The position numbers and the translations under genes are program-made. A model generated the notes under the pieces. That model saw nothing but the letters and a program-made list of their open reading frames with translations, searched no databases and was not told the origin of the DNA. This document shows, piece after piece, positions 8,534 to 41,100 of a stretch of DNA of 58,499 nucleotides (positions are counted from its first letter, which is position 1; every line of letters starts with the position of its first letter). The stretch is from IMG/VR virus record IMGVR_UViG_3300046011_001509, positions 1 to 58,499 of that record; one strand, 5' to 3'. The stretch is from a virus. Taxonomy: Duplodnaviria > Caudoviricetes.

Positions 8534-9195
8534 AAACTACACTCAACAAAATCCGCGAGCATTTACCCTACTCCGACGGCTGGGCCAAACTACTCAAGGA
8601 CTTGGGCAAGACCGAAGCCGATGATGAGCCTCTACTTATCACAACCCTCTTAGACAACAACGGGCTGGATGATGCCCTGTGGTGCCTACGTGCCGTAGAC
8701 GGGCACCAGCGCGAAATGCGTCTGTACGCTGTGGACTGCGCTCGCAGTGTTCAGCACTTGATGACTGACGCGAGAAGCGTCGCAGCTATCGACGTTGCTG
8801 AACGCTATGCAAACGGCCTTGCTACCGAATCCGAGCTGACCGCAGCATGGACCGCAGCATGGGCCGCAGCAGGGGATGCAGCAAGGGACGCAGCAGGGAC
8901 CGCAACATGGGCCGCAGCAAGGGCCGCAACAAGGGCCGCCGCAAGGACCGCAGCAAGGGCCGCCGCAAGGACCGCCGCAAGGACCGCAGCAAGGGCCGCC
9001 GCAAGGACCGCCGCAAGGACCGCAGCAAGGGCCGCCGCAAGGACCGCAGCAGGGGCCGCAGCATGGGCCGCAGCAGGGGGTGCAGCAAGGGACGCAGCAT
9101 GGGCCGCAGCAGGGTACGCTGCAATGGAAATCCAAGCTGACTTATTGCGGATTGTTTGTGCAGAGATTGAGCAGGGAGAGCACCATGCTGACTAG
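8530..9195 (+). CDS. Imm5-like domain protein with Ala-rich tetrapeptide repeats
   Basis: GLDDALWCL...RLYAVDCARSV...AIDVAERYANG then (AAR/W-A/T/D)n. Confidence 0.75.
   Translation: MKTTLNKIREHLPYSDGWAKLLKDLGKTEADDEPLLITTLLDNNGLDDALWCLRAVDGHQREMRLYAVDCARSVQHLMTDARSVAAIDVAERYANGLATESELTAAWTAAWAAAGDAARDAAGTATWAAARAATRAAARTAARAAARTAARTAARAAARTAARTAARAAARTAAGAAAWAAAGGAARDAAWAAAGYAAMEIQADLLRIVCAEIEQGEHHAD
8840..9123 (+). repeat. Degenerate 12-bp tandem repeat (GCCGCAAGGACC-like)
   Basis: Roughly 23 units visible; opens all frames and creates shadow ORFs. Confidence 0.9.
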
Positions 9196-9769
9196 AGAAG
9201 AAGTTGTGAAGCTGGCAATGAAAGCCGGGTTTAGGCATCCAGTGCGTAGTGATGGCTACATGGGTACGGCTTTCGACTACCGAGATGGAAACGACAGCGG
9301 TGCAAGCCTTGAAGTGTTTGCCAAGGAAGTTTGGCAAGCCGCCCTCGCGCAGAAGGAATCAGATTGGAACCGCTTTCACCATGTCATGCACAAACATGGG
9401 CTGCACCCCGGACGTACTGACGATGACTTGATTGATATTCTGGATAAGGCTTTGTCTCCACGTACCGCGATGCAGAAGGAAGCGCATCGTCTTCCCGACG
9501 CCAGGGAACCGATAGAGCCTATCGGTGAAGTACAACTAATCCAGACAGGTGTGCATGACGAAGCACAAGTACGGTTCCACATGTACGGCAGCATCCCAGC
9601 ACTTGGAACAAAGCTCTATACCACCCCACCCAACCACACCGCCGTGCTGAAGATGGCGTTGGAGGCGCTTGCAACCGCACAAGAGGCACTCCCACCTTAC
9701 GGAGCCATTCGTAGGGAGCTTGATGCTGCCATCGCCGCGATTCGTGCAACCTTGGGAGAAACGAAATGA
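9185..9769 (+). CDS. Hypothetical mosaic phage protein
   Basis: MLTREEVVKLAMKAGF...GTKLYTTP...ALEAL; SD GGAGAG. Confidence 0.7.
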   Translation: MLTREEVVKLAMKAGFRHPVRSDGYMGTAFDYRDGNDSGASLEVFAKEVWQAALAQKESDWNRFHHVMHKHGLHPGRTDDDLIDILDKALSPRTAMQKEAHRLPDAREPIEPIGEVQLIQTGVHDEAQVRFHMYGSIPALGTKLYTTPPNHTAVLKMALEALATAQEALPPYGAIRRELDAAIAAIRATLGETK

Positions 9770-12589: not shown

Positions 12590-12850
12590 ATGCGGTTTGC
12601 CATAGTGATTACCCTTGCCCTGCTTGGCTGCTCAAAGGAGACGCCAAAATCTAATGCGCTCAACGTTGAGCGCATTGCGCCAGAGCCGCAGCGCACACTT
12701 CAAGTGGGAACCAACCAACTCATCTCGGTACAAATCCCCGGACAAGAGTGGCACTCCACCCAGAAGTGCTACATCTTCCGCGACTTGGAGTTCAAGACAT
12801 CCAGCATAAGCTGCCCAGCCGGGGCTACTGGGAAGATCGAACCGGACTAG
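12590..12850 (+). CDS. Small lipoprotein
   Basis: MRFAIVITLALLGC lipobox; beside attP. Confidence 0.75.
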   Translation: MRFAIVITLALLGCSKETPKSNALNVERIAPEPQRTLQVGTNQLISVQIPGQEWHSTQKCYIFRDLEFKTSSISCPAGATGKIEPD

Positions 12851-15800
12851 CTTTTGCGCTTCAGCTTCGACTCCTTCTTGTACCAATCGGTATTGAAGTC
12901 TTCAGCCATCTTCTCCCGCTTCTTCTGAACCATCCGGCGCTTGAGTTCCTTCTCCTTGTCGGTTGAGTTGCTCTCAGCGATCTTGACCTCTTCCTTCTTA
13001 AGGTCACCCATCATTTCGCTAATGTTCTCGGCGTAAGCCCCCATTCCTTGTAGGAACTTCTTCTCGTCTGAGTACTTGGGCTGGATGCCTATCTTGGCTT
13101 GCGCCTTCATGTCAGCGAACTCTTTCTTCGCTTCCTTGGAGCGGTCATAGAACAGGCTCATCCCAGACTTGGAGTCGTACTCGCCATAGAACGCCTTGTA
13201 GATTGGGATGTCTCTGGTGTTTATTGGCGCATCGATTGCTCCCAAGTACCCAAGGTTGATCACATCTCCGACAAACCTACCAAGCCCACCGCCAACAATC
13301 CCCTCAAGGTTTTTGATCGTGCCGGGTTCAATGTCAACCGCACCCTTTAGAGCCATGTTCCCACCAGACACGCTATTGAGCCACCTTGCTATGCGATGCT
13401 CCACTCGACCATGATTTGTGGCAGAGACAGTTTCAGAGTCAGGCTTCTGGTCGTATGGTGACTTCTCTGGCCCAAGCTTCCTTCCGAACCCGTCAACACC
13501 CTCTCGGATTTGGTACTCAGCATCCAGTATCGTCGGCCTCCATGCTAGTGCTGCCTGATGCTCATCCCGTGGATCGAACGACCCGCCAGCAGGGTTGTAT
13601 GACCCAGCCGTGGCACTCAGCATGTTGATTGCAACCTTAACAGCGCCAACGCCTCGCGCAGGGTCTTTGACGTTCCTTGCGAGGTCAGCCAACTGATACC
13701 CCAGCACAGGGAACACGTTTAGTCCATACGCCATTGGGAACTTCATGTACCTTCCATGTGTGCCAACCTTCTCTCCAATGTCTGCACCCGGTGTCAGCAT
13801 GATGATTAGGTTCCGCTCTTTCTCAAAGTCCGGTATCTTGTCCCAGTAAGCCTGACCGTCTTCGTCATCTCCACCCACTGAAGCAGCCCACAGAGCCAGT
13901 CCCATACCGACTGACGCCATGCCAGCCATTGCGTAGCGGACCTTCGGGTTCTTTGCCATCTGGTAGATTCGCACGGAACCCTGCACCGATGCGTTGTAGA
14001 ACAGGAAGGCTGTGTTGATAAGCTGCCCCTGTTCGCCAAACCTATTGAAGTTCACCGTCAGATTCTTTGCAATCGAAGCGGCTTGAGCCGGAGTCTTGCC
14101 CATCTCTCGGGCAGTCGCATAAGCCGCCAGACGCGCAGTATTCTCCGACATTGACCCAACCAACTCCAGCCCGTGAAGAAGCTTCCCAGTAGCCCACCAA
14201 GCCGTGGTCTTCCTAGCCCTCTCCCCTGCGGCTGTAGCATAGTGATCTAGTTTGTTAATGACCCCGCTCTTGTTTGACGCATCAAATGATATGGGTGCTG
14301 CTCCAGCTTGCAACATGGCGTCACGAAGCTCCTGTCGTATAGACGCATGGTCGCGCATGAACACGCCACCCGTGGTCCCACCAGCAAAGCGCATCTCACG
14401 CATCCACTTGTCCATTGGGTGAGCTTGTGGGTCAGAGGTGTTCCTCTCAACTCGCCAAGACGCAACACCAGCAGCACCATAGTTCGCTGTGTATCTACGC
14501 AAGCCCTCTGCTCCAAGCTCGTCAAAGATTGCAGCCGCGCCCATCTGAGCGTCCCGTGCCGCATTGACCAATCCGAACACAGGGTTGTAGCGGGTAATCG
14601 TATTGCGAAGCAGTGATGTGTACACGCCAAGCGTCTTGGTCATCATCATCTCTGCATCACTTGTCTCTGCCTTGAACGTGTTCTGCATGGCGCGAAGCAG
14701 CAGCGGGTCATTGATCTTGATGTAGACCTGTTCACCACCAACCTTCACAGAGATGGTTTCGTCACCCTTGTCGAGTGTGTCAACGTACTCAATCAACCCG
14801 TTCACCTTGCGGGTGGCGCGGGTCATTGGCTGCACTTCCCATAGATTTGCATCTGGGTTCGATGTCACCAAGTCGAGGAACGTCTTGCCTACAGCGTTGC
14901 GCTCTGCGCGAATTGTGATGCGCTCGTAGTCACGGATGATGTTCTCAATGATGTCGCCAGCCTTGGAGTCACGGCCCATCGCTGCGATGGTTTCTTTGCC
15001 CTTGGTGTTGAATCCCCTGCCGAGTCCGGGGCGCACACTACCGCTGTCAGGATCGACATCTTCAAAGCCGCGCAACGGAACGTAGTTCTCGTACTGGCTC
15101 TCCAACCCATCGTACTGGTCTTGCGTAATCAAGCCCTCATCCAGCATCAGCCTGCGGGTTGTGGATGTGATTGCCAGAAGGTCCGCATGCAACTCTTCAA
15201 ACTTTGCTGCGTCTTGCGATAGTTCCACCAGTTGGATGATGTTGTCAGCTTCGGCGTCACTCATTCCAGAGCCAGTCTTCACATGCTGGTTCGTCTTCTG
15301 GATGTGAGCGTTGCGCTCTTTGGCATGTTTTGCATAGGCATAGGCAGCAAGCTCATTCAAGTCAACCTTGTACTCCACAGCCTTATTGATCAGCGGGTGG
15401 ACTACGTTGTCAGCAAAGTCTCGCAGAACCTCATGGACCCGCCCGTGCATGCGCTCTTCAGCGCGATACACATCCTGCTCTTCGCCAACCACTCCACCAC
15501 CCTCTAGCAGCAAGTCCTGCACCATCTTGACACGGTTGTACTTGTCCTGCATCACGCGCTGAATCGCTTGGCCCTTTGACTCTTCTGGAAGTCCTTGTGC
15601 TGCTGGGTATCCTTTGCGTTTAAACATTGGCACATCGACCACGCCAGACTTCTCGAACGCTGCTACCCTAGACTGCTTCAAGATATGTGCAATGTCAGCC
15701 ATATCGAGTTTCGCAAGCTGCATAAATCCGTTGTCACGCAGCCAAGACTTGATTGCACCGACAACCTCTAGCGCAAATTGCCTCAATGATCCCGTTTCAT

Positions 15801-18800
15801 TTTCCGCTATGTGCGAAAGAACTTCCTCCATAAGCCAAGCTCGGCGAATCTCACTTTGCCCTCCTGCCGCACGGTTCATGTGTTGGCTTGTAGTGATGTT
15901 GTTGGCAAAGTTCACATAGCCGTTGGTATCCAGCTTGTATTTCTGAACCAAATAAGCTATCTTCGACTCGCCAAGAGACAGCGATAGTTTGTTTAGGCGC
16001 TTGTATATCTCTGGCCCGAACAAGGCTCTAAGGCCAATGTGCCCATAAAGCTCATGGATTACAGTGGATTCAAAGTCTTCAGCAGAATGGATATTATCTT
16101 GAACGATATAAACATCACCCCTACCGAAAGTAATGCCCATGTCTCCGGGGCTAGAGACTTGCTGCACATTGACAGGCAAGTCCCCGTGAGTCTTGACAAG
16201 GTGGATGGTGTTGCCGGAACCAAGCAGACTCTGGTTGAGCTTCCCGATGAAGGCGGCTTCCTGCCCTGCCGTTATTTTGGTAGAGACTCCGCCAAGACTG
16301 GTGATTGAGCGCTTGTAGCCCGTCAGCCCTTCTTCGGAGTCCCGTACACCCGGTTCATTACTTCCTTGTCCTGCTGCGCCGTCGTTGGCTTCTGAAGTTG
16401 CAGCTTCATTCGCTCCATCGCTGCCTTCGCTTTCGGACTCAGAGACTCCTGCGCTGTTGCGCCATCCGTCGAAGATTTGTGGGTCAACATAATGTTCTTT
16501 CGTGGTCGCTAGGGTATCCCCTATTTTAGTCGCTGCTGCCTGTAAAGCCAAGTCAACATAGGCTTTGAACTCCGCTTCGTTGGTAGGCTGTGGCATGCCA
16601 TCCACAACCAGTTGCGCAGACTTCGTGGCCTGCCAAGTCCTGAAGTCATGCACCTTATATTTCTTGCCGCCATCCAGTGAATCCTTGTACTTGCGTACTG
16701 CGCGGTCTGCGGTTTTGAACAATGATTCTCCACCCATGCGCTTGGATATATCCTTTGCGATGTCGGCATTCTTAATGCTGTGACGTTGCTGTACGCCAGA
16801 CTTTCCAATGAAGTCAAACTGCGCCACATCTCCAGTCACCTTCACATGCTCTGGCCTTAGAGTGGACGCGCCGTAGGTAGGACCAGACTTGCTCATGCCG
16901 CCGCCAATGCGGAAGCCTGTGTGTGCGATCAGACGTAGGACCACGGCCTCTTCCTTGCCTGCTGTAGCGTCACGCTCAATCTGCGTCAACAGCGAGTCGC
17001 GGTCATTGTGGAAGTCGCGCATGCGCTTGAACTTCTCCACCAGCGCAGCGGCTTTCTGCTCCTTGGTGTAGCCCTTCTCTGCAACACCTTCGACATCCTC
17101 AACTGCAAGAACGTCAATGCGCTTGCGTGCGTAGGCGATTGGCTTGGCAAACTCATTGACTTCATTGGCATCAACCTTGCCCATGATGATTCCGTTCGTC
17201 ATCACGGCCCGGGCCAAAGTTGATTCACCTATCCCTGTGCCACGATTCTTTGGATCATTCAACCAACGCTGAATTCCCTTGGTTACATCCTTGCCAGACG
17301 AATCGGTGAACACTCCAGTCTCAGGGTCCAATGAAAGACGGGTCAAGCCAATCATTGTCGGGCTGTCGTTCTCGTCAATCCACTGGCTAGTGGATGGCTT
17401 GTAGGTAGCCTTGTGACTTCCATTCTCAGTAGTCGTTGTGTCGGGCAACACCTCCATCACATTACGCATATTGGCAATTGCCAAGCGCGATATGTTCATC
17501 AGATGCTCTTCTGGTGTTGATGCGTTTTCATCAAACCCATAGATGCGGTTCTGCTGTCCGGGGAGCAGGGTCGTTGAGTCACCCGTCTTGATGGCGAACG
17601 AGAATGATTGCTCAGTCCTGCGGAACGTGTTAACTGCTGAGATATTGGTATCGCAGTAAAACTTTTCCTTCTGGTTCTTTGCCCACTGACCAATCACTGC
17701 ATACACGGCGGTGCCAACGCGACTTCCTTTAAGGCCCATTGTGTTCACAGCAAATCCGTCGTCATCTGACAACTCGGAGAAGTGCGTTACCGCCAAGTAA
17801 TTGTGATTGGTTGATTTATCAATGAAGCGTATCGTTGCGTCACGAATGTTGGTGCTATCCACTGACACGGAGTACCCGTTGAATGCATCCAAATCTTTGC
17901 CTATTTGCGTGAAGTCAGTGGACGTGCTGGTCTTGTACTTGAAAGCATTCTTTGCCTTTGCCAGTTCAAGCCACGCCTTCGCTATCTTCAGGTTCGTGCC
18001 TTTCTTGTAGGCTGATGCAATGTCGTACCCCGAGTCGTGAATAAACCCGCGAACCAAGTGCGCCTTAAACAAGTTGATAGCAACGTTCTTGGTGTAGTTT
18101 GAACCATTGTCAAACCATCCAGCCGCTGCGCTTACCTTGTACTGGTCATCGCCAACCTTGGTTATTGTCGAGTGAGGGTAGGCTGCATTCGGATTCATTC
18201 CGACTGAACTGCCAACAGAGTCACCGTTAAAGTCCGGGTTTCCAAACGTGTGTGCGAATGCGCGTTCTGGGAATATGCCGTGCTGCGCCATGCTCTCTTT
18301 GGTAACAGCTTTTGGGCCTTGCGGGTTGTCGATCCTTCTGGCCCTATTCACCATCCGTTGACGGAACGCAGCCTCATCAGCAAGAGCGGAAAGTGCGTCA
18401 TCATCTGGAGAAGTGAAGTCCAAGTCTCCTATGTCTTCCTTGTCTAGCTCTTCAACCTCTATGGCGTCTAGGTTGAAATTTCCAAGGTCGCCAGTCGTGT
18501 CTTCATCGTAAACAAAGTCGTCCACCGATTTGGTGCGGCGTTTGTAGGATGGCATTTCAATTGAGTGCTTGCCAAGCAGCACGGCGAAGTCTTGATTCGC
18601 TGCCTTGTCCATGAAGTAGCCATCAAAGCCAGCATTCTTGACAAAATTCTCAAACTTGGTTTGACGCTCTTGCTCTGTTGCGCCAGTGGACATGCGGCCA
18701 AAACCCTTGTGATCTTTGGACACATCGTACAAATTGTTAAGCTTGATGATGTGCTTCACACCACCCACACCCGCTTCAGGCGTTACCCCATTGCCCCTGT

Positions 18801-21800
18801 CCACATAGAAGTAAAGGCGGTCTTTGATGTAGCCGCTTGATTGAGCGCGGTCACGCTCTGCGCCATTGAGACCGGAGCCGTGGAACTGGCTGCTGAGTAT
18901 CTTCCGGCGCTGCTGGCTGAAGTGAACTCCAACCTTGGCTACCGATCCTTCTCTGGCAACTCCGTAGTCGCGTTCGGCTTCTGCTGAAGACTGCGTAGCG
19001 TCTGCGAGAGCGCGTTCCTGAACTCTTGATCTTGTGCGTCCAGCGCTGCTATTGTCGATCCAGTCTTGTCGCTTACCAATAGATTCTCTTGCGAGTTTTC
19101 TGAGTTGAACGAGGTGATCCCTTTTCTCACTCCGAAGAATGGTCCGTCCTTCACTGGATCGTGTTTGCTCCGAATTACCTTTGCCATACTTGCCTTCTTT
19201 CAAATAGTCGCCACGGTTATCTGACCAAATCAACTCACTCTCATAGCGCTCAATCTCTTTGATATCCAATGCTGCGCCATCCCATTCAAGAGACTCAACT
19301 GCACTCACAATTCCAGCTTCAAACTCCTCATCACTCAGCCTTGACTCACCATTGAATGCTGTGAAGTTTCCAAACACCAACTCACTCGGCTTTGTTTGTG
19401 TGTTTGCGTCAGCGCGTGGGAACTTTTCGTGAATCAGATCGCGCAGTTCTTGTAGCTTACTGCTAGGGAACCCTTCAGGCAAGATCACCTTGATAAATGA
19501 GTTCTGATTACCACCGCTGGTGTTGCCCTCATCAAACACAACCATTGATTGCTGGTCGAGGATGTAGCCAAGCTCACGGGCTACATCGTTCAACTGGTCT
19601 TGAGTTGCGCTCTCTGGCGCGTCAATGATGAAGTTCGGATTCGTCTTTCCTTGGTACTGACCAGTGGACATATCAATGTCCCAGCCACGAAGACCGTGCA
19701 TATCCATCAAACTTCTGAATAGCTTTTGCGCTACGTTGCGATTGGCCGCAGCCTTCTCGCTCCACTCTTGCGCATCCCATTCCTGCGCCGTGCTTTCTCG
19801 CCTGCGCATCAACTTTTCCTTGTCACTCATTAAAGAGTAGTCTCTGGAAATCTTCTTGCCACCAAGCAATATTTCTTCGCCGGACTGGTCTTGCTCGTAC
19901 CCCCTGTCGACCGGGTGCGGAGCAACCTCACCGATTACACCCTTGCGGCTGTAGTCGGGATCATCCACCACTGAATCGCTGATAGTCCCGTCACGGCGAA
20001 GCTCAACAATCGCATCGCGCAGAACCATCTTGGCTTTGGTCAGGTCCGCAACATACTGGTCTACCGCTTTGGACTTGGCATTACCTTTGCCACCACGCAG
20101 TTCAGCGATCAGATCGTTAATGGTTTGCAGCCACTTGCTTGCCCATTGCTGGAAGTTCTTGGGGTCAGCTTTCGCAAGAGACTTGATGAACTCACGGTCT
20201 GTGGCGCGGTTGCCAACAAAGTCAGCCATCATCTCCTTGCGCGTCTCAGCCTTGTCAAGATAGCCCTTCGCGGCTTCCATCCTCAACGCACTGAGCTTGG
20301 CTTTCTGCGACACCGACCAATACTTCTGTGGCATCGGGTTACCCTTGCCGTCCTTGATCGAATCCGTGTAAGCGACTATCTCTGGAGAGGCGTTAATCCT
20401 GTCTGACGCAAGGAAGTTGGCGATGTAATCCAGCTTGCCTTTCTCCCCCATTGAGTCGTAGATTGCATCGACCTTGGAGATGTACTTCTGCGCGGGTGTG
20501 TTTGTCTTGCCGTCGCGTGTGTCAGCTTCGGCTTGCGCCTGCATGACGTGGTGGGTTTCATGCCACCCAGTTGTCAGTGCATTGGAGGTGAGTCCCTTGG
20601 TGTTGATGTAGACCTTGCCATCAAGCTGGATGCCATTGACTGAGTCAGGGCTTGGGTCACTGAATGCAACCACTTCAGCGGTAACGCCAAACAGCGCCTT
20701 CGCCTGCTGCATAGCAGCTTGAATCTGTGAGTCAGCCTTTGCATCTGGCGCTCCCAGAGTTATCTTCGGGTTGGTCGCCGGGTCTTTGGCGTTCCAGTGG
20801 TCTAGGACTTTTTGGGCTGACTCTCTGCTGGCAACGGCTGCTTGTTGAACAGACTGTTGTACGCTTGATCCCGCTGTGTTACCCACAACTGGAACTCCTG
20901 CGGCGACAGTGTTCGTCGCATTTCCTGTTCCTTGGCTTGCTCCAGTAGCGCTGTTCCGCACTGCCTCTGATTCATTTGCAACCTCCGTTGATTGTGGAAC
21001 CCGAGATAGTAAATCCGAATCACTGGTCCGCGCAATCGGGTTCGTTACTGTCGTTGCATTTGCTCCACTGGCTGGTTGACGTGGTTCACCCACAGCAGCA
21101 GCCGCAAGTCCTCCCGTGTCGGTTCCCACTCCATTTCCAGTCGCAGTTGCATCGACCACGCCTGTCGTGGCGTCAGCGCTCCCGCTTGGTAGGCTGACTG
21201 GATCGGTTGGTAGAACTCCAGTTGTGTTGCCATTAAGTACGCCTTCGATGTTTGCAGTTGCGGCTTGGATTGCCGGGTCAGCTTGCGCTTCACCGACTTG
21301 AGCTACGCCCCCCACAGACGCTTCAAACGCAGCGATGGCTGTGCTGGTATCAGGCGCGGAACTTATCGCAGCCGTGGCCCTATCCTGCCTCTGCTCTGGG
21401 CTATTGGCAAGGTTTGGATTCAGCGTTGTAGGCACATAGCGCTCTGGCTCTTTGCGTGACTCGCTGAGTGCAGCAACTCCTGCAAACGGACCGCTCGTCA
21501 ACGTTGCAGTAGCCATTGCCTCTGCAACACCCTCATCCCACTTCCTGCTCGGGTCAATGGTTTGTATTTGCTTGTTAGCGATGACGTTTGACGAACCTTC
21601 GTCAATGTTCTCGCCAGCCAATTCTTTGGCAACAATCTTGGCGAAACCTTGCTTCTCGGCAGTTTTACCAGCAGCCTTCGCTAGACCTGATGCAACCATT
21701 GCCGCTTCAGCGCCGCCATAACCAAACGCCATACCAATGGGGGCAGCTATCAGAGCAGCCATCCTTGCCTTGGTAGTGGCGATCTCTTTCCTTGCCTCAA

Positions 21801-22827
21801 GAGGGTCCATCCCCTTGTTGTCAACCAAGTCACGATAGTCTGGGTTCGCATCCATTAACGACTGTTTCGCCGCCATGACACCGTCATAGGTTGAACCAGC
21901 AGCGTCACCCGCTGACATACCGCCAGCCGCTGACATACCGCCAATCGTCCCGCCAAGCTTTGATGCCGTGCTGGCAATAGCTCCGCCAGACACAGCCTCT
22001 CCAAGCGCCAAGGTAGGGGATGCCCTGCCAGCAAGACCAACCGCTCCAGCCGCAGTTCCAGCCACAAGCTTAGATGCGCCAAGAATGCCGATGAAGTTTG
22101 GTATTTGCTTGATGCCCTCTTGTATTCCAAGAGAGGGGTTCGCCACAAGTGATGTCAATGTTTCAACATACTTGCCAAAGAAACCATCCTCTTCATCGAT
22201 ACGCTTACGCATGAGTGCGCGTTGCGCCTTTACTGTCTCAGACTCCTCGCCAGCAAAGTCTGCCTGTACTGCGCGGAAAGTATCTGCCAGCATGCTGCCG
22301 GGAGCGATGATGTTGGTTGGCAACTGTGCAAGCGATAAGGTTCCTTGCTTTAGCGCAGCAACTGAATCTCCAGCCCACTCACCAATACTGCGGAACTCAT
22401 CTGCCTTGGCTTTCAGAAGTGTGCCGTCATCTCCTGAGTCGTTGGCTTTTCTGGACGCATCAACCCCTCCAGCCAAAACCTTTGCGCCCCTAGCCGTAGA
22501 CCTGTCCGCAATGTCAGTCGCATTGGCTTTGGTGAACATGACAGACTGCGGACTCTTGCTTCGATTACGCGCTTCGCGGTTAGCAGCGAGGTCAACGTCA
22601 TCAGTCATTCCAGCAGGAGCCTCCATCGTCACATCCTGAAGAACGCTCTCCTTCTTTGGCGTACTTGCGCCAGTGGCAAAGTTACGCACGGAGTTCATAG
22701 CGCTGCCGACCATATCCATCATGGATGGCTCTGGAATCGCCTCAACTGCTTTAGCCTCTGGTGCGTCTGGCAAGTCGTCAAACAAGCCACTATGCGTCAC
22801 TGGCAAGTCATCAAATAGTCCAGCCAT
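12847..22827 (-). CDS. 3326-aa polyvalent (LPD38-type) internal virion protein with two HExxH peptidases, ART-like, GNAT-like and topoisomerase IB core domains
   Basis: Last gene of the late operon after ejection proteins; WHETHH, IHELYGHIG, TGFRIG/FIGKSG/HDFRTW/HYVDP, C-terminal NLTVNFNRFG...FLFYNASVQG...YWDKIPDFEKERNLII LPD38-like region. Confidence 0.85.
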   Translation of the reverse strand: MAGLFDDLPVTHSGLFDDLPDAPEAKAVEAIPEPSMMDMVGSAMNSVRNFATGASTPKKESVLQDVTMEAPAGMTDDVDLAANREARNRSKSPQSVMFTKANATDIADRSTARGAKVLAGGVDASRKANDSGDDGTLLKAKADEFRSIGEWAGDSVAALKQGTLSLAQLPTNIIAPGSMLADTFRAVQADFAGEESETVKAQRALMRKRIDEEDGFFGKYVETLTSLVANPSLGIQEGIKQIPNFIGILGASKLVAGTAAGAVGLAGRASPTLALGEAVSGGAIASTASKLGGTIGGMSAAGGMSAGDAAGSTYDGVMAAKQSLMDANPDYRDLVDNKGMDPLEARKEIATTKARMAALIAAPIGMAFGYGGAEAAMVASGLAKAAGKTAEKQGFAKIVAKELAGENIDEGSSNVIANKQIQTIDPSRKWDEGVAEAMATATLTSGPFAGVAALSESRKEPERYVPTTLNPNLANSPEQRQDRATAAISSAPDTSTAIAAFEASVGGVAQVGEAQADPAIQAATANIEGVLNGNTTGVLPTDPVSLPSGSADATTGVVDATATGNGVGTDTGGLAAAAVGEPRQPASGANATTVTNPIARTSDSDLLSRVPQSTEVANESEAVRNSATGASQGTGNATNTVAAGVPVVGNTAGSSVQQSVQQAAVASRESAQKVLDHWNAKDPATNPKITLGAPDAKADSQIQAAMQQAKALFGVTAEVVAFSDPSPDSVNGIQLDGKVYINTKGLTSNALTTGWHETHHVMQAQAEADTRDGKTNTPAQKYISKVDAIYDSMGEKGKLDYIANFLASDRINASPEIVAYTDSIKDGKGNPMPQKYWSVSQKAKLSALRMEAAKGYLDKAETRKEMMADFVGNRATDREFIKSLAKADPKNFQQWASKWLQTINDLIAELRGGKGNAKSKAVDQYVADLTKAKMVLRDAIVELRRDGTISDSVVDDPDYSRKGVIGEVAPHPVDRGYEQDQSGEEILLGGKKISRDYSLMSDKEKLMRRRESTAQEWDAQEWSEKAAANRNVAQKLFRSLMDMHGLRGWDIDMSTGQYQGKTNPNFIIDAPESATQDQLNDVARELGYILDQQSMVVFDEGNTSGGNQNSFIKVILPEGFPSSKLQELRDLIHEKFPRADANTQTKPSELVFGNFTAFNGESRLSDEEFEAGIVSAVESLEWDGAALDIKEIERYESELIWSDNRGDYLKEGKYGKGNSEQTRSSEGRTILRSEKRDHLVQLRKLARESIGKRQDWIDNSSAGRTRSRVQERALADATQSSAEAERDYGVAREGSVAKVGVHFSQQRRKILSSQFHGSGLNGAERDRAQSSGYIKDRLYFYVDRGNGVTPEAGVGGVKHIIKLNNLYDVSKDHKGFGRMSTGATEQERQTKFENFVKNAGFDGYFMDKAANQDFAVLLGKHSIEMPSYKRRTKSVDDFVYDEDTTGDLGNFNLDAIEVEELDKEDIGDLDFTSPDDDALSALADEAAFRQRMVNRARRIDNPQGPKAVTKESMAQHGIFPERAFAHTFGNPDFNGDSVGSSVGMNPNAAYPHSTITKVGDDQYKVSAAAGWFDNGSNYTKNVAINLFKAHLVRGFIHDSGYDIASAYKKGTNLKIAKAWLELAKAKNAFKYKTSTSTDFTQIGKDLDAFNGYSVSVDSTNIRDATIRFIDKSTNHNYLAVTHFSELSDDDGFAVNTMGLKGSRVGTAVYAVIGQWAKNQKEKFYCDTNISAVNTFRRTEQSFSFAIKTGDSTTLLPGQQNRIYGFDENASTPEEHLMNISRLAIANMRNVMEVLPDTTTTENGSHKATYKPSTSQWIDENDSPTMIGLTRLSLDPETGVFTDSSGKDVTKGIQRWLNDPKNRGTGIGESTLARAVMTNGIIMGKVDANEVNEFAKPIAYARKRIDVLAVEDVEGVAEKGYTKEQKAAALVEKFKRMRDFHNDRDSLLTQIERDATAGKEEAVVLRLIAHTGFRIGGGMSKSGPTYGASTLRPEHVKVTGDVAQFDFIGKSGVQQRHSIKNADIAKDISKRMGGESLFKTADRAVRKYKDSLDGGKKYKVHDFRTWQATKSAQLVVDGMPQPTNEAEFKAYVDLALQAAATKIGDTLATTKEHYVDPQIFDGWRNSAGVSESESEGSDGANEAATSEANDGAAGQGSNEPGVRDSEEGLTGYKRSITSLGGVSTKITAGQEAAFIGKLNQSLLGSGNTIHLVKTHGDLPVNVQQVSSPGDMGITFGRGDVYIVQDNIHSAEDFESTVIHELYGHIGLRALFGPEIYKRLNKLSLSLGESKIAYLVQKYKLDTNGYVNFANNITTSQHMNRAAGGQSEIRRAWLMEEVLSHIAENETGSLRQFALEVVGAIKSWLRDNGFMQLAKLDMADIAHILKQSRVAAFEKSGVVDVPMFKRKGYPAAQGLPEESKGQAIQRVMQDKYNRVKMVQDLLLEGGGVVGEEQDVYRAEERMHGRVHEVLRDFADNVVHPLINKAVEYKVDLNELAAYAYAKHAKERNAHIQKTNQHVKTGSGMSDAEADNIIQLVELSQDAAKFEELHADLLAITSTTRRLMLDEGLITQDQYDGLESQYENYVPLRGFEDVDPDSGSVRPGLGRGFNTKGKETIAAMGRDSKAGDIIENIIRDYERITIRAERNAVGKTFLDLVTSNPDANLWEVQPMTRATRKVNGLIEYVDTLDKGDETISVKVGGEQVYIKINDPLLLRAMQNTFKAETSDAEMMMTKTLGVYTSLLRNTITRYNPVFGLVNAARDAQMGAAAIFDELGAEGLRRYTANYGAAGVASWRVERNTSDPQAHPMDKWMREMRFAGGTTGGVFMRDHASIRQELRDAMLQAGAAPISFDASNKSGVINKLDHYATAAGERARKTTAWWATGKLLHGLELVGSMSENTARLAAYATAREMGKTPAQAASIAKNLTVNFNRFGEQGQLINTAFLFYNASVQGSVRIYQMAKNPKVRYAMAGMASVGMGLALWAASVGGDDEDGQAYWDKIPDFEKERNLIIMLTPGADIGEKVGTHGRYMKFPMAYGLNVFPVLGYQLADLARNVKDPARGVGAVKVAINMLSATAGSYNPAGGSFDPRDEHQAALAWRPTILDAEYQIREGVDGFGRKLGPEKSPYDQKPDSETVSATNHGRVEHRIARWLNSVSGGNMALKGAVDIEPGTIKNLEGIVGGGLGRFVGDVINLGYLGAIDAPINTRDIPIYKAFYGEYDSKSGMSLFYDRSKEAKKEFADMKAQAKIGIQPKYSDEKKFLQGMGAYAENISEMMGDLKKEEVKIAESNSTDKEKELKRRMVQKKREKMAEDFNTDWYKKESKLKRKS

Positions 22828-25076: not shown

Positions 25077-25513
25077 TAAAGCCCCCTACAGAAAGTGAGT
25101 GATTGCGTCTGAAGCCCAAAGCCCAGTCGCTGTAAAAGTTTTGCCAGTCTCGGATCGGCATCCGGTTCCAAGCTGAAGATTGCCAGCTTGATTGATGGTC
25201 GGCTCTTGACCCACCGCGCGTACTCTCGCAGCAGTTCAATTCCAAGGCCGGGTGTTTTTGTGTAGAACATGCAGACGCTTGATTGCTGTCGCTCAAACCA
25301 GAAGCCGTTTCCAGTCTTGGCAGCAACACAAGCTTTGACGACACCATCAACCTCTCCAACCCACACAAAGTCTGCGCTGCATGAGATGCCTTGTGTCAGC
25401 ATGTTCACCATGCTTTGGCGATTAATCTTGAGTGGGAGTGGATTCCGAGACACCGATTCCACTGCAAGCTCAACGATTGCAGGGATATCGGAGGGTTTGG
25501 CTTTGCGGATCAA
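25076..25513 (-). CDS. GNAT-family acetyltransferase
   Basis: MIRKAKPSDIPAIVEL...FVWVGEVDG...PGLGIELL...LLQRLGF. Confidence 0.75.
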   Translation of the reverse strand: MIRKAKPSDIPAIVELAVESVSRNPLPLKINRQSMVNMLTQGISCSADFVWVGEVDGVVKACVAAKTGNGFWFERQQSSVCMFYTKTPGLGIELLREYARWVKSRPSIKLAIFSLEPDADPRLAKLLQRLGFGLQTQSLTFCRGL

Positions 25514-36561: not shown

Positions 36562-37632
36562 TCACAGTGCTGGTGTACCGACCCAGACCAACGCTGCCCA
36601 GCCGTTATTCAGAATAACGGAGGTCATGTAGGTCTTGGCACCGATGTAACCACGCTGGCCCAAAGGATCGTTCTTATCCTTCTGACCGGGTGGAATCCAG
36701 CTAACGTCCATCGAATCAGCACCGCGCAGAGCGACCTGACCCCATGCGTCTTCAGCCACAACTATGACTGGGTAGCAGTCAACCTTGGTGCCGCTGGAGT
36801 ACAAGCCTGTGGAGCCAGTAGCAGCGCCAGCATCGGTGTTTGCAGCCAGTTCAGGCGACAGCACAAAGCGGAAAGATTCGACAGAGCCGATCTCTTGTTC
36901 ATGCACCACCTTGCGGTTGCCGTACTCAGCCACATGCTTGAAGCCGGGGAGGTCGCGGATAGCGGGTTCCAAGTCAGTCGAGCAGAACACCAGATACGAT
37001 GCTTCCACAGGAGCGGTAGCAAAGTTCGGGCTGGGTGCCAGAATGCTGGTGATCATCTTGCCGTGGTTACCCTTGATAGAACGTGTCACCTTGCGGATCA
37101 GGTTCAAGCTCAAGGTGCCATTCACGGTAGCGATGGAGTTACCAGTGCCGCCGTAGAACAGGTTGGTCAAACCCTTCAGAGCGCCATAGCGAACCATCTC
37201 GCGCAGCAAGCCGATACGCTCGCCAGCCTGCTTCTTCATCTCAGCGGGGACATCATCTTCGTACAGGTCGAAGGTTTTGTCCGTCACTGCATAGAGGCAG
37301 GAATACTGCTGGAGAGTCGCCGTCACATCAGACGCCACAAGGGTGTCTGCTGCGGGTGTCACGCCTTCAGTCGTCAGGTGGCTGGACGCGAAGGTCGCCA
37401 CGTTAGAGCCGGTAATCCAGCGTGATTGCGGATCAACACCACCAGACAGAGCGCCAGCAGATGTGCCATAAGGCAACCAGCGACGGAACTGAACCGTGTC
37501 GCCGTTGTTCTTTGGAATCTGTTTTTGCGTTCCAGTGATACCGAGAATTTCTACCGGCAGAGCGTGAGCCAACACCTCGCCTTTTAACTTACCAATTCGC
37601 TGCGCTTGCGTCAGCATTGTTTGAGTAGCCAT
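36562..37632 (-). CDS. Major capsid protein, N4-gp56 family
   Basis: IPKNNGDTVQFRR...EGVTP...EIGSVESFRF...DPLGQRGYIGAK. Confidence 0.92.
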   Translation of the reverse strand: MATQTMLTQAQRIGKLKGEVLAHALPVEILGITGTQKQIPKNNGDTVQFRRWLPYGTSAGALSGGVDPQSRWITGSNVATFASSHLTTEGVTPAADTLVASDVTATLQQYSCLYAVTDKTFDLYEDDVPAEMKKQAGERIGLLREMVRYGALKGLTNLFYGGTGNSIATVNGTLSLNLIRKVTRSIKGNHGKMITSILAPSPNFATAPVEASYLVFCSTDLEPAIRDLPGFKHVAEYGNRKVVHEQEIGSVESFRFVLSPELAANTDAGAATGSTGLYSSGTKVDCYPVIVVAEDAWGQVALRGADSMDVSWIPPGQKDKNDPLGQRGYIGAKTYMTSVILNNGWAALVWVGTPAL

Positions 37633-37653
37633 GATTTAATTTCCTTAAAAGGT

Positions 37654-38445
37654 TTACCCTCGTACCGCCTTAAAACCGGCGAGAAAGGCGTCTGTTTCTG
37701 ATAGATTGGGTTTTCCGCTGGCATTGCCTTTCGGCGTGATTGCAGCCTCTAACCGTTTCTGATTGGTTTGTTTTGACTGGGAGGCTTTCGCTTTCCAATC
37801 CTTGTAGGCAGAAATCTTTTCTCCGATGAACTCAGCGTCCCAACTTGCGTCGAGGGCTTCCTTTTCATCAGCAGGCAAGGTCTCTTTCCAGCCAACAAAG
37901 TCTTCCGATGCCACTACTGTTTTCCAGTCCCGATGCTGCACAGTGAGGAGCTTGGTTTCAAAGGCTTTCGTGGTTTCTTCCACGGAAGTCTTGAGTCGCT
38001 GCTCAAACTGATCTGAGTTGGGCTGACCTGCAACGCTCATACCGTTGAGGTCTTCGGCTAACAATGCGGCTAGTTCTGGATAGTCGGCAGACAAGCGCTT
38101 GAACTTGTCTGGGCTGAGTGCTAGAGCCTGTGACTGCTGCGGGGTTGACTTGAGAGAATCAATCGACTGCTTCAGCGAACCCATCGAACCAAAGATTTTT
38201 GACTCTCTCTGTTTCAACGCTTCCACTGTGGAGACAAGCTCCTTGATTTGCTCTTCGGTGTAACCGGCAATCAGCTTCGGCTCTGGTACGGGTTCAGGTT
38301 CGGGTTGCTCGATACCGTTTGCGGAATCAAATCCTGCCTGAAATGCAGCGTCTTCGTTGGCTTCGACTTGCGTCTCTTCCACTTGTGGCGCTTCAGCCTG
38401 TACTTCCTCTACTGCTACTTCCTGAACTTCGTTCTCTGTTGACAT
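37654..38445 (-). CDS. Scaffolding protein
   Basis: Acidic helical protein just upstream of the capsid gene; AAFQAGF and AFLAGF motifs. Confidence 0.75.
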   Translation of the reverse strand: MSTENEVQEVAVEEVQAEAPQVEETQVEANEDAAFQAGFDSANGIEQPEPEPVPEPKLIAGYTEEQIKELVSTVEALKQRESKIFGSMGSLKQSIDSLKSTPQQSQALALSPDKFKRLSADYPELAALLAEDLNGMSVAGQPNSDQFEQRLKTSVEETTKAFETKLLTVQHRDWKTVVASEDFVGWKETLPADEKEALDASWDAEFIGEKISAYKDWKAKASQSKQTNQKRLEAAITPKGNASGKPNLSETDAFLAGFKAVRG

Positions 38446-38505
38446 ACACACTCCAAAATGCAAAAGCCACCCAAAGGCAGCTTTCCTAAATGAGTTCGGC
38501 TATTG

Positions 38506-38709
38506 CTAGTCGGACTCGGCTTGCACTGTCTCTTGTTGACCAAGGGACAGAATCTGTTTGATAGCAGAGATACGTCCCCGGAGTCGAGACGTTGCTATCG
38601 CATCAAGCTCACCATCGTTTTGTTGACGGCAAGCTTTGAGTTGTTCGTTAAGGTGTGCGTCCAGACGCAGCCAAACGGCTGACTGGCGCTCTAATTCACT
38701 GAGCTTCAT
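38506..38709 (-). CDS. Small protein between portal and scaffold
   Basis: RLRGRISAIKQIL. Confidence 0.65.
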   Translation of the reverse strand: MKLSELERQSAVWLRLDAHLNEQLKACRQQNDGELDAIATSRLRGRISAIKQILSLGQQETVQAESD

Positions 38710-41066: not shown

Positions 41067-41076
41067 ATTTGGTCGT

Positions 41077-41100
41077 AAAAAAACCACCTCATGGGTGGTT
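41077..41100 (-). terminator. Terminator-like hairpin before the portal gene
   Basis: AACCACC-loop-GGTGG followed by T7 on the minus strand. Confidence 0.6.

What the first reader, a model, noticed from the sequence alone, without database searches (positions are those of the whole stretch)
16460..17080. Topoisomerase IB catalytic core embedded in a putative ejected virion protein
Seen: KFKRM...TGFRIG...TYGASTL...HV...FDFIGKSG...HDFRTW...IGDT...HYVDP. Residues R1973, K2009, R2063, D2104 and Y2113 align in order and spacing with the vaccinia TopIB pentad R130, K167, R223, H265, Y274. Two deviations: Asp at the His/Asn position, and HxxR (tyrosine-recombinase-like) instead of KxxR. The N-terminal clamp domain appears absent. 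Inference: an injected DNA strand-transferase that relaxes, circularises, resolves or covalently protects incoming DNA, or a nickase or inactive DNA binder. I know of no characterised example in this context.
Basis: partly seen in the sequence, partly recalled or inferred. Interest (0 to 1): 0.85.

Follow-up and report, generated by a model that had tools for sequence, protein, structure and literature searches.

The report
Topoisomerase IB inside giant phage protein
One 3,326-residue protein of an uncultured phage, of a kind that related phages build into their particles, carries a real DNA-relaxing enzyme domain (type IB topoisomerase) with an unusual, conserved active-site variant, much as poxviruses pack such an enzyme in their particles.

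Summary
Window 16426-17079 (minus strand, aa 1917-2134 of a 3,326-aa ORF) encodes a type IB topoisomerase (TopIB) catalytic domain. Pfam PF01028 scores 68.8 bits against a cut-off of 23.7. The best solved relative is Deinococcus TopIB, E 1.8e-14. The AlphaFold model matches it at Z 21.5, while tyrosine recombinases reach at most 13.6.

R1973, K2009, R2063 and Y2113 are invariant in all 175 relatives that are complete at the six sites, out of 179. The two deviations are not decay. His2060 with Asp2104 marks a conserved subgroup of 45 of the 179, which holds 26 of the 29 proteins of 1,500 aa or more. No folded N-terminal clamp is predicted.

The host protein is a phage-type polyvalent protein (LPD37, LPD38). 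Its C-terminal ~1,000 aa are homologous to Burkholderia phage JC1 gp69, which mass spectrometry found in virions.

Packaging, injection and enzyme activity are inferred, not shown. My term searches found no paper describing TopIB in such proteins. This scan, however, has noted TopIB in polyvalent or portal-fused proteins before, on other DNA (71 notes, at least 62 genomes).

Verdict: real, a new variant of known kinds, of moderate interest.

The parts
12847..22827 (-). Giant ORF, 3,326 aa (P0001): phage-type polyvalent protein at the end of the late structural operon
   Evidence: Pfam LPD37 and LPD38; PHROG 14770/616/10691 on aa 2415-3302
16426..17079 (-). TopIB catalytic domain, aa 1917-2134 (confidently folded core); the Pfam PF01028 match is 16492-17055
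   Evidence: Pfam; PDB; pLDDT >90 over model residues 58-275; fold
16909..16911 (-). Codon of R1973 (pairs with Deinococcus R137, vaccinia R130)
   Evidence: R in 53 of 53
16801..16803 (-). Codon of K2009 (pairs with K174 / K167)
   Evidence: K in 53 of 53
16639..16650 (-). H2060-D-F-R2063: HxxR in place of the usual KxxR; R2063 pairs with R239 / R223
   Evidence: R in 51 of 51 covered; position 2060 is H in 28 and K in 23 of 53
16516..16518 (-). Codon of D2104, at the His265 (vaccinia) / Asn280 (Deinococcus) position
   Evidence: D 23, N 26, H 1 of 53; RKHRDY in 45 of 179
16489..16491 (-). Codon of Y2113, the predicted nucleophile (pairs with Y289 / Y274)
   Evidence: Y in 50 of 50 covered
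17080..17172 (-). Linker aa 1886-1916 between LPD37 and TopIB, predicted disordered, holding PIAYARKR (17119-17142); no folded clamp domain
   Evidence: pLDDT <50; motif position; similar motif upstream of TopIB in P0002, P0004, P0005, P0013
16306..16449 (-). Acidic low-complexity linker after TopIB (aa 2127-2168; a 45-residue window starting near aa 2132 has net charge -9) followed by TGYKRS (16306-16323)
   Evidence: the acidic tail is not conserved in this subgroup (2 of 32)
17191..17979 (-). LPD37 domain (aa 1617-1879), directly upstream of TopIB; an independent module, not a clamp substitute
   Evidence: Pfam; variable distance and order relative to TopIB in homologues; model, weak GNAT-like resemblance only
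13123..16248 (-). Conserved C-terminal module (aa 2194-3235, includes LPD38 at 13201-13845) shared with virion-associated giant proteins; presumed virion-incorporation part
   Evidence: JC1 gp69, E 1e-72; 346 phage records; JC1 virion mass spectrometry
20548..20562 (-). The only canonical HExxH motif (aa 756-760), candidate processing peptidase; no family match
   Evidence: no Pfam hit
36562..41087 (-). Major head protein (36562-37632) and portal (38706-41087) on the same strand, upstream in the late operon
   Evidence: phrog_1357, phrog_332/1216
48084..49358 (-). Terminase large subunit
   Evidence: PF04466, E 5.9e-33

Best explanation
The segment encodes a genuine and probably active type IB topoisomerase catalytic domain that lacks the usual N-terminal DNA clamp. 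It is one cargo module of a 3,326-aa phage-type polyvalent protein.

The protein's conserved C-terminal ~1,000 residues are what it shares with giant proteins found in the virions of related podoviruses. The most likely course is that the protein is built into the particle and enters the cell with the DNA. The TopIB module may then be cut free at the flanking linkers.

There it would act as an energy-free swivel. Y2113 attacks one DNA strand and forms a 3'-phosphotyrosyl link. R1973, K2009 and R2063 stabilise the transition state and protonate the leaving group. The DNA rotates and is resealed. The result would be relaxation of supercoils in the incoming phage genome, or in host DNA, at the very start of infection. 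This parallels the TopIB that poxviruses carry in their virions for early transcription.

In this subgroup a His (HxxR, as in tyrosine recombinases) and an Asp replace the usual Lys and Asn/His, giving a hybrid active site.

Shown: domain identity, fold, conservation, gene context, and homology to a virion protein. Inferred: packaging of this protein, injection, processing, enzyme activity, and the DNA it acts on.
For: Identity and fold:
- PF01028 at 68.8 bits against a cut-off of 23.7; the same family in a six-frame search.
- Deinococcus TopIB 2f4q, E 1.8e-14, with residue-for-residue pairing of the active site.
- AlphaFold model with pLDDT above 90 for 186 residues.
- The 20 Foldseek rows listed with E <= 1.9e-7 are all TopIB (the tool counts 21 matches at E <= 0.001); tyrosine recombinases appear only from E 2e-3.
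- VIA: Z 21.5, rmsd 2.1 A over 194 residues to 3m4a; the 20 TopIB entries score Z 16.4-21.5 and the best recombinase 13.6.

Selection on catalysis:
- R, K, R and Y are present in all 175 sequences that are complete at the six sites, of 179.
- The same holds in the 77 of 80 IMG/VR loci that are complete at the six sites.
- His2060 with Asp2104 occurs in 45 of 179. Asp sits on a His background in 45 of 46 cases.

Cargo context:
- 26 of the 29 relatives of 1,500 aa or more carry the H/D variant.
- Relatives are fused to portal proteins (4 of 8 ORFs scanned), ART-PolyVal, 2H phosphoesterase, SNF2 helicase and Mu-like protease domains, and to MuF and portal domains (precomputed Pfam).
- LPD38 is listed as confined to phage-type polyvalent proteins (Iyer 2017 passage).

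Virion link:
- aa 2194-3235 match JC1 gp69 aa 3406-4426, E 1e-72. gp69 gave 51 unique peptides from CsCl-purified virions (PMC9144972, Table 6).
- The gene ends the late operon that holds terminase, portal, capsid and tail-fibre genes.
- Both metagenome loci that hold a giant homologue with enough flank place it beside structural or packaging genes: tail protein and tail fibre in L084, terminase in L085.

Analogy: vaccinia encapsidates a TopIB that acts mainly in early transcription (passage and references 72-73 in PMC12188299).
Against: - No experiment exists on any member of this subgroup.
- Asp at the His/Asn position puts a negative charge where other TopIBs place a hydrogen-bond donor to the scissile phosphate. 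I know of no activity data for Asp there. Only His to Asn or Gln is reported as a modest loss (Gibb 2010 passage).
- The clamp domain that helps other small TopIBs encircle DNA is missing.
- Virion association rests on 26% identity to a protein of a distant phage. JC1 gp69 matched only through its C-terminal part and showed no match to the TopIB segment in that comparison.
- Only one canonical HExxH motif is present and it matches no peptidase family, so processing is unproven.
- A stand-alone relative with the H/D variant (L087, 320 aa) lies beside helicase and UvsX-like genes. The enzyme type is therefore not tied to virions.
- CCCTT, the poxvirus target site as I recall it, is neither avoided nor enriched in this genome: 88 found against 94 +/- 8.6 expected.
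Confidence: 0.6

Rival explanations
1. A swivel that works inside or at the mouth of the capsid. On this reading the TopIB relieves twist that builds up in DNA during packaging or ejection, rather than acting in the host cytoplasm.
For: Relatives are fused directly to portal proteins, where DNA enters and leaves the capsid: 4 of 8 ORFs scanned, plus PF06381/PF06074 fusions. TopIB needs neither ATP nor Mg2+ (established knowledge of the family). The giant protein lies in the structural operon.
Against: No data exist on where the protein sits in the particle. In many portal-fused relatives a small acidic ORF follows the enzyme: 17 distinct cases. Earlier notes of this scan read that ORF as an inhibitor, which would mean silencing in the capsid, not activity there. 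In the present protein the domain lies mid-chain, about 1,900 aa from one end and about 1,200 aa from the other.
Confidence: 0.15
2. A strand transferase or covalent end-capper rather than a relaxase. The His-plus-Asp site would shift the cleavage-religation balance, so that the enzyme stays attached to the incoming DNA or joins or resolves it (end protection, circularisation, junction resolution).
For: HxxR is the tyrosine-recombinase arrangement. TopIBs are said to lack an equivalent of that His, and some substitutions of it in Cre accumulate covalent intermediate (Gibb 2010 passages). The variant is strongly linked to giant cargo proteins: 26 of the 29 relatives of 1,500 aa or more. The clamp domain is lost.
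Against: The fold is clearly TopIB and not recombinase: Z 21.5 against at most 13.6. No second DNA-binding or multimerisation domain typical of recombinases or telomere resolvases was detected. The terminase is a Terminase_3 type and the related JC1 is described as a headful packager with terminal redundancy, so no special end chemistry is needed.
Confidence: 0.1
3. A host-directed weapon or counter-defence module. Once injected it would nick or relax the host chromosome or plasmids, to shut down supercoiling-dependent host transcription or to disturb a defence system.
For: Polyvalent proteins are interpreted as conflict 'weaponry' delivered with the DNA (Iyer 2017 abstract and passage). TopIB co-occurs with ART-PolyVal and 2H phosphoesterase domains, which are read as host-targeting or counter-defence modules.
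Against: No target is known. Nothing in the sequence tells host DNA from phage DNA. CCCTT is not depleted in the phage genome, which gives no sign of self-avoidance.
Confidence: 0.1
4. A catalytically dead or strongly attenuated DNA-binding module kept for a structural role, such as holding DNA in the particle.
For: Asp replaces the transition-state His/Asn, and the clamp is missing.
Against: The nucleophile Tyr and the R-K-R triad are invariant in all 175 complete relatives. That is not expected of a mere binder. The Asp is itself conserved in 45 cluster representatives.
Confidence: 0.05

Closest known systems
Bacterial 'poxvirus-like' type IB topoisomerase (Deinococcus radiodurans TopIB, PDB 2f4q/3m4a)
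   Same: Best sequence match (E 1.8e-14) and best structural match (Z 21.5, rmsd 2.1 A, 194 residues). The catalytic-domain fold is the same. R, K, R and Y sit at the aligned positions.
   Different: There is no N-terminal domain: PF21338 is absent and the alignment starts at chain residue 81-88. His stands where Deinococcus has K236 and Asp where it has N280. The domain is embedded mid-chain in a 3,326-aa protein rather than being a ~350-aa cellular enzyme.
Poxvirus virion TopIB (vaccinia/variola; PDB 2h7f, 3igc)
   Same: A small TopIB carried in the virus particle and acting at the start of infection (passage and references in PMC12188299). The fold is shared: Z 17.8.
   Different: The sequence match is very weak (E 0.69-0.97). 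The poxvirus enzyme is a free protein with an N-terminal clamp, K220 and H265. Packaging is shown for poxviruses and only inferred here.
Phage-type polyvalent proteins (Iyer, Burroughs, Anand, de Souza, Aravind 2017, PMC5512222) and the 'DarB-like' giant virion proteins of Bcep22-like phages (JC1 gp69)
   Same: A giant multidomain protein carrying LPD37 and LPD38. The C-terminal ~1,000 aa are homologous to JC1 gp69. The gene sits at the end of the virion module.
   Different: A term search of the main text of PMC5512222 finds 'topoisomerase' only in a reference title; its supplements could not be opened. In the pairwise comparison JC1 gp69 matched only the C-terminal part and nothing in the TopIB segment.
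Stand-alone TopIB of jumbo phages (Phage NCTB, phiRSL1, Lu11, PaBG; Iyer et al. 2021, PMC7824862)
   Same: Phage-encoded TopIB with a catalytic domain of the tyrosine-recombinase superfamily (passage). NCTB is among the 7 of 50,697 phage records that match this domain.
   Different: Those are separate genes counted among replication and repair functions, at most 27% identical. They are not domains of a virion protein.
Tyrosine recombinases (Cre, XerH, lambda Int)
   Same: Shared catalytic-domain superfold (Z up to 13.6), the same chemistry, and the HxxR motif.
   Different: Clearly weaker structural match than to TopIBs. No Phage_integrase family hit. No recombinase-type N-terminal DNA-binding domain.

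Membership tests
Type IB topoisomerase (Pfam PF01028 catalytic core) | Sequence match to the family profile above the curated cut-off | tested here: met
   68.8 bits against 23.7, E 5.7e-19; 68.6 bits in the six-frame search. The whole-protein scan misses it.
Type IB topoisomerase (Pfam PF01028 catalytic core) | TopIB catalytic-domain fold | tested here: met
   The 20 Foldseek rows listed with E <= 1.9e-7 are all TopIB; VIA Z 16.4-21.5 for 20 TopIB entries against at most 13.6 for recombinases.
Type IB topoisomerase (Pfam PF01028 catalytic core) | Arg-Lys-Arg triad plus tyrosine nucleophile at the aligned positions | tested here: met
   R1973/K2009/R2063/Y2113 pair with R137/K174/R239/Y289 of 2f4q; invariant in 175 of 175 complete relatives.
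Type IB topoisomerase (Pfam PF01028 catalytic core) | His (eukaryal, poxviral) or Asn (bacterial) as the fifth catalytic residue | tested here: not met
   Asp2104 aligns with N280. Asp is conserved in 45 of 179 relatives, so this is a subgroup variant and not a lesion.
Type IB topoisomerase (Pfam PF01028 catalytic core) | N-terminal DNA-clamping domain (PF21338 in bacterial enzymes) | tested here: not met
   No PF21338 hit at E <= 10; residues 1860-1916 have pLDDT below 50; the structural alignment starts at chain residue 81-88. 8 of the 15 giant proteins lack PF21338 in the precomputed Pfam list.
Type IB topoisomerase (Pfam PF01028 catalytic core) | ATP- and Mg-independent relaxation through a 3'-phosphotyrosyl intermediate | not testable with these tools
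   Needs biochemistry.
Phage-type polyvalent protein (Iyer et al. 2017) | Many unrelated domains in one giant polypeptide, including LPD domains; LPD38 as a phage-type marker | tested here: met
   LPD37 (E 4.5e-12), LPD38 (E 1.7e-20) and TopIB in one 3,326-aa ORF.
Phage-type polyvalent protein (Iyer et al. 2017) | Zincin-like metallopeptidase domain for self-processing | tested here: inconclusive
   One HExxH at aa 756-760, and an HELYGH that aligns with HEAFH of JC1 gp69. Neither region matches a Pfam peptidase family.
Phage-type polyvalent protein (Iyer et al. 2017) | Packaged in the virion and delivered with the DNA | not testable with these tools
   Homology only: E 1e-72 to JC1 gp69, a virion protein by mass spectrometry.
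Tyrosine recombinase / integrase | Integrase-family profile match and recombinase-type fold as the best structural match | tested here: not met
   No integrase family at E <= 10 on the segment; recombinases rank below all 20 TopIB entries. HxxR alone is shared.

The most novel reading that the evidence does not exclude
The His-x-x-Arg ... Asp TopIBs could be a separate, phage-borne lineage of virion-delivered enzymes with a hybrid recombinase/topoisomerase active site. Its chemistry or regulation might differ from every studied TopIB. It might, for example, be held silent in the DNA-packed capsid by the Asp and switched on after entry, or be biased towards stable covalent attachment to the incoming genome. 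Together with the thousands of other phage TopIBs in metagenomes, it could be the 'not yet discovered' viral TopIB group that Forterre and Gadelle (2009, PMC2647321, passage) proposed as the source of the bacterial, poxvirus-like enzymes.
Probability: 0.15. Interest if true: 0.8.

Novelty: new variant of a known kind. Interest (0 to 1): 0.55.

Why it matters
Apart from the stand-alone TopIB genes noted in some jumbo phages, TopIB is known from eukaryotes, poxviruses, mimivirus, Thaumarchaeota and a scattering of bacteria. Here it appears as a recurrent cargo module of proteins that phages are thought to pack and inject. An exhaustive search found 3,499 cluster representatives related to this domain, and many of those examined are fused to portal, MuF, ART or helicase domains.

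If the enzyme is delivered with the DNA, phages and poxviruses have arrived at the same solution: a cofactor-free swivel carried in the particle.

The conserved Lys-to-His and Asn/His-to-Asp pair is a natural experiment on the TopIB/tyrosine-recombinase active site. It can be tested directly with a ~220-residue domain.

There is also a practical point. Whole-protein Pfam scans miss the domain in this protein, so such cargo is under-annotated.

Tried and rejected
1. LPD37 as a substitute for the missing clamp. The idea arose because LPD37 and PF21338 were mutually exclusive among the 15 giant proteins. I rejected it. The distance from LPD37 to TopIB varies from 5 to 579 aa, and the order is reversed in P0008.

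2. A degenerate clamp in aa 1886-1916. MAFFT laid PIAYA...VLAVEDVEG under the PPAW...GRDAKG strand region. The model gives pLDDT below 50 there and Pfam finds no PF21338, so this is not supported.

3. An acidic 'plug' after the enzyme, a lead from earlier notes of this scan.
- Small acidic ORFs do follow TopIB ORFs in 21 of 80 IMG/VR loci, 17 of them distinct.
- Acidic tails in cis occur in 13 of 27 RKKRNY proteins.
- In the H/D subgroup only 2 of 32 have one (this protein at -9, P0003 at -11), against a background of 1.6%.
- The acidic linker here is therefore not a conserved feature.

4. Asp-His co-variation as proof of a dyad. Asp sits on a His background in 45 of 46 cases. On a FastTree of 175 domains, however, most Asp sequences fall in two clades (30 and 8 tips), with 6 parsimony changes at position 2104 and 11 at 2060. 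This is suggestive only.

5. CCCTT avoidance or enrichment: none, 88 found against 94 +/- 8.6 expected.

6. Near-identical phages: no megablast match for the gene in 50,697 phage records.

7. Relatives in cellular genomes. Two scans of 185,579 species genomes found none. With single-sequence patterns, 113 stretches matched and 0 were confirmed. With the subgroup signature [FY]KVHD[FL]RT[WR], 3 stretches matched and 0 were confirmed. Only exact patterns were scanned, so diverged copies could be missed.

8. LPD37 relatives in IMG/VR: 19 pattern matches, 0 confirmed.

9. LPD37 fold. The model is confident (pLDDT 85), but Foldseek finds nothing at E <= 0.001 (best is Hat1, E 0.29). The wide VIA search gives at most Z 5.7; many rows are GNAT acetyltransferases, but all are below the noise level the tool states.

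10. Upstream neighbour: window 25510-26973 against JC1 gp68 shows no similarity.

11. Pfam on neighbouring ORFs and on eight slices of the giant protein added no families beyond LPD37, LPD38 and the terminase.

12. Literature. The searches were 'polyvalent proteins'+topoisomerase, 'topoisomerase IB'+bacteriophage+virion, 'type IB topoisomerase'+phage+portal, and topoisomerase/ejected/'internal virion protein'/phage. None listed a paper that, by title or abstract, describes TopIB in polyvalent, portal-fused or ejected phage proteins. Supplements of PMC5512222 and PMC7824862 were not seen and may list such architectures. Krogh & Shuman 2002 is not held. The published Deinococcus residue numbers and the vaccinia Lys220 mutational work are recalled, apart from what searches show.
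Full report
WHAT IS THERE

The window is a single 58,499-base virus record, which CheckV estimates to be 78% complete. A 3,326-codon ORF runs on the minus strand from 22827 to 12847. The finding's coordinates correspond to aa 1916-2123 of that ORF.

IS IT A TOPOISOMERASE IB?

Yes.
- Scanned alone, aa 1890-2140 match Pfam PF01028 at E 5.7e-19, 68.8 bits against a cut-off of 23.7. A six-frame search of the record finds the same family at 16492-17055.
- Against all PDB sequences the best match is Deinococcus radiodurans TopIB (2f4q/3m4a, E 1.8e-14). It is followed by the TopIB entry 6z01 (8.4e-11) and Leishmania TopIB (6.9e-4). Variola and vaccinia enzymes match only weakly (E 0.69 and 0.97).
- Counting along the printed alignment, R1973/K2009/R2063/Y2113 pair with R137/K174/R239/Y289 of the crystal chain. 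H2060 pairs with K236 and D2104 with N280.
- An AlphaFold model built on 14 sequences has pLDDT above 90 for 186 residues, covering aa 1917-2134.
- The 20 Foldseek rows listed with E <= 1.9e-7 are all TopIB; the tool counts 21 matches at E <= 0.001. Tyrosine recombinases start at E 2e-3.
- VIA-align gives Z 21.5 (rmsd 2.1 A, 194 residues) to 3m4a. The 20 TopIB entries score Z 16.4-21.5, and the best recombinase (XerH) scores 13.6.

A whole-protein Pfam scan does not report the domain, and the precomputed annotation of this protein lacks it.

THE TWO DEVIATIONS AND THE MISSING CLAMP

I assembled three sets of relatives:
- 15 giant proteins including this one (1,829-5,821 aa searched);
- 38 shorter proteins;
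- the best 150 of 3,499 cluster representatives from an exhaustive search (1,490 at E <= 1e-10, 61 at E <= 1e-30).

Together these make 179 proteins. In the 175 that are complete at the six sites, R, K, R and Y never vary. The six-site patterns are:

| Pattern | Count |
|---|---|
| RKKRNY | 110 |
| RKHRDY | 45 |
| RKHRNY | 17 |
| RKKRDY, RKKRHY, RKSRNY | 1 each |
| partial | 4 |

The Asp is therefore a conserved subgroup character. It occurs with His at the Lys position in 45 of 46 cases. Of the 29 relatives of 1,500 aa or more, 26 are RKHRDY.

Among 80 IMG/VR loci the counts are 69 RKKRNY, 6 RKHRNY, 2 RKHRDY and 3 partial.

On a FastTree of the 175 domains, most Asp sequences form clades of 30 tips (support 0.94) and 8 tips (0.91). 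Parsimony gives 6 changes at the Asp site and 11 at the His site. Coupling of the two residues is suggested but not proven.

Passages of Gibb et al. 2010 (PMC2943603) supply the background:
- His265 of vaccinia TopIB tolerates Asn or Gln with a modest loss of activity.
- Lys220 points away from the scissile phosphate.
- TopIBs lack an equivalent of the recombinase His of HxxR.
- Recombinases use an acidic residue (Glu176 in Cre) to organise the site.

On that background, the present subgroup looks like a hybrid of the two active-site types. This is inference.

The clamp: no PF21338 is found, aa 1860-1916 are predicted disordered, and the structural match begins at chain residue 81-88. Eight of the 15 giant proteins likewise lack PF21338, while seven carry it.

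THE PROTEIN AND THE PHAGE

Pfam finds only LPD37 (aa 1617-1879) and LPD38 (aa 2995-3209) besides TopIB. The polyvalent-protein paper lists LPD38 as confined to phage-type polyvalent proteins. It proposes a metallopeptidase domain as the means of cutting such proteins into units (passage).

The C-terminal 927 aa match 346 phage records: Vibrio, Stx-converting, Ralstonia, Burkholderia and Bacillus phages. Residues 2194-3235 align with aa 3406-4426 of Burkholderia phage JC1 gp69 (26% identity over 1,116 columns, E 1e-72). That 4,515-aa 'DarB-like' protein gave 51 unique peptides from CsCl-purified virions (PMC9144972, Table 6).

In the window the gene closes a minus-strand late operon with terminase, portal, major head protein and a tail-fibre-related gene.

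Two metagenome loci with giant H/D-type homologues and enough flank place them beside a tail protein and a tail-fibre-like protein (L084, 2,278 aa) and a terminase (L085, 3,813 aa). A stand-alone 320-aa H/D-type enzyme (L087) lies beside helicase and UvsX-like genes.

Relatives of the domain are fused to portal proteins (4 of 8 ORFs scanned), ART-PolyVal, 2H phosphoesterase, SNF2 helicase and Mu-like protease domains. By precomputed Pfam they are also fused to MuF and other portal families.

The subgroup signature was not found in 185,579 representative cellular genomes. Only 7 of 50,697 deposited phage records match the domain at all, each at 27% identity or less; those that carry an annotation name a phage protein or a topoisomerase.

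HOW IT MOST LIKELY WORKS

The domain keeps everything that all TopIBs and tyrosine recombinases need for transesterification, so I read it as active (about 0.65). Because it rides on a protein whose conserved part is virion-associated in a relative, I read it as virion cargo delivered with the DNA (about 0.5-0.6).

It is flanked by disordered linkers. The upstream one carries PIAYARKR. Similar [YF]-x-[RK]-[RKNQ] motifs flank the domain in P0002, P0005 and P0013 on both sides and in P0004 upstream, against a background of 0.2-0.3 motifs per 100 aa. That fits release by processing, but it is weak evidence.

The closest functional analogue is the TopIB that vaccinia encapsidates and uses mainly for early transcription (PMC12188299, passage and references).

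The rivals are set out with their tests in the rival-explanations section: a swivel acting at the portal or inside the capsid, a covalent capper or strand transferase, a host-directed nickase, and an inactive binder.

COMPARISON AND NOVELTY

This is a member of the TopIB superfamily by profile, fold and catalytic tetrad. It fails two features of the canonical enzymes (the fifth residue and the clamp) and forms a distinct subgroup. It is also a phage-type polyvalent protein.

Stand-alone TopIB genes in jumbo phages are in print (PMC7824862, passage). My four literature searches listed no paper that describes TopIB inside polyvalent, portal-fused or ejected proteins. In the main text of the polyvalent-protein paper the word 'topoisomerase' occurs only in a reference title. 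Supplements were closed.

This scan has already noted TopIB in polyvalent or portal-fused proteins on other DNA: 71 notes in at least 62 genomes. The theme is therefore not new to the scan.

New here are the H/D active-site subgroup, its link to giant clamp-less cargo proteins, and the homology of the carrier to a virion protein confirmed by mass spectrometry.

Forterre and Gadelle (PMC2647321, passage) proposed that bacterial TopIB came from an undiscovered viral group. The abundance of phage TopIBs makes that testable.

VERDICT

Activity, packaging and target remain inferred. This is a new variant of known kinds, with interest 0.55.

Noticed in passing
window 12847-22827 (whole ORF) against 16408-17160: hmmscan of the whole 3,326-aa protein does not report PF01028 even at E <= 1, and the precomputed Pfam list for this protein lacks it. 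Yet the isolated segment scores 68.8 bits. Domains in such giant proteins can be lost by whole-protein scans.
   Followed up: partly
window 17191-17979 (LPD37, aa 1617-1879): LPD37 folds confidently (mean pLDDT 85, pTM 0.83) into an alpha/beta domain with no clear solved relative. The best Foldseek hit is Hat1 at E 0.29. The wide VIA search gives at most Z 5.7, with many GNAT acetyltransferases among the weak rows. A block around VNTFRRTEQSFSF is invariant in 9 sequences.
   Followed up: partly
IMG/VR loci L003, L009, L011, L013, L014, L016, L018, L020, L021, L023, L028, L029, L031, L048, L064, L066, L074: A small ORF (35-89 aa) with net charge -7 to -30 starts at or just after the stop of the TopIB-bearing ORF. 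There are 17 distinct cases, in 21 of 80 loci. Several share a D-W-[RK] motif followed by an acidic run. 13 of 27 RKKRNY proteins carry such an acidic tail in cis, against 2 of 32 in the H/D subgroup.
   Followed up: partly
proteins P0007, P0009-P0012, P0019, P0058 and others, just after the TopIB domain: Many H/D-type giant proteins share a basic stretch right after the domain, of the type ...N-x-Q-R-P-[RK]-Q-x-[RK]-[RK]... followed by [LF]-R-D-x-P-[LF]-R (seen by eye in the output). It is absent from the present protein, which has an acidic linker instead.
   Followed up: no
It aligns with HEAFH of JC1 gp69 through a one-residue gap. The only canonical HExxH is at aa 756-760. Neither region matches a Pfam peptidase family.
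   Followed up: partly
window 17119-17142, 16306-16323, and homologues P0002, P0004, P0005, P0013: Aromatic-x-basic-basic motifs bracket the TopIB domain in the closest homologues: KPVAYQRKQ and VDYSKKG in P0002, VAYARN and VAYARR in P0005, PAFARK and PQFARN in P0013.
   Followed up: partly
window 8883-9091: Seven CCCTT matches on the minus strand lie 12, 24, 36 or 60 bases apart, in steps of 12. They lie inside the ORF 8876..9769 and point to a short tandem repeat in that gene.
   Followed up: no
window 1-58499: CCCTT lies almost always on the strand opposite to the genes: the minus strand in 1-12 kb, the plus strand in 12-32 kb. This agrees with the strand composition skews. The total count is as expected by chance.
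   Followed up: no
L001 (MW202426.1, 49.5-kb circular uncultured phage): This is the nearest deposited relative. Its major capsid protein is 68% identical. It has a 3,145-aa 'coil containing protein' whose C-terminal part is 45% identical to this giant protein. That record was not among the 7 records that match the TopIB domain, so the cargo part seems to differ between close relatives.
   Followed up: partly
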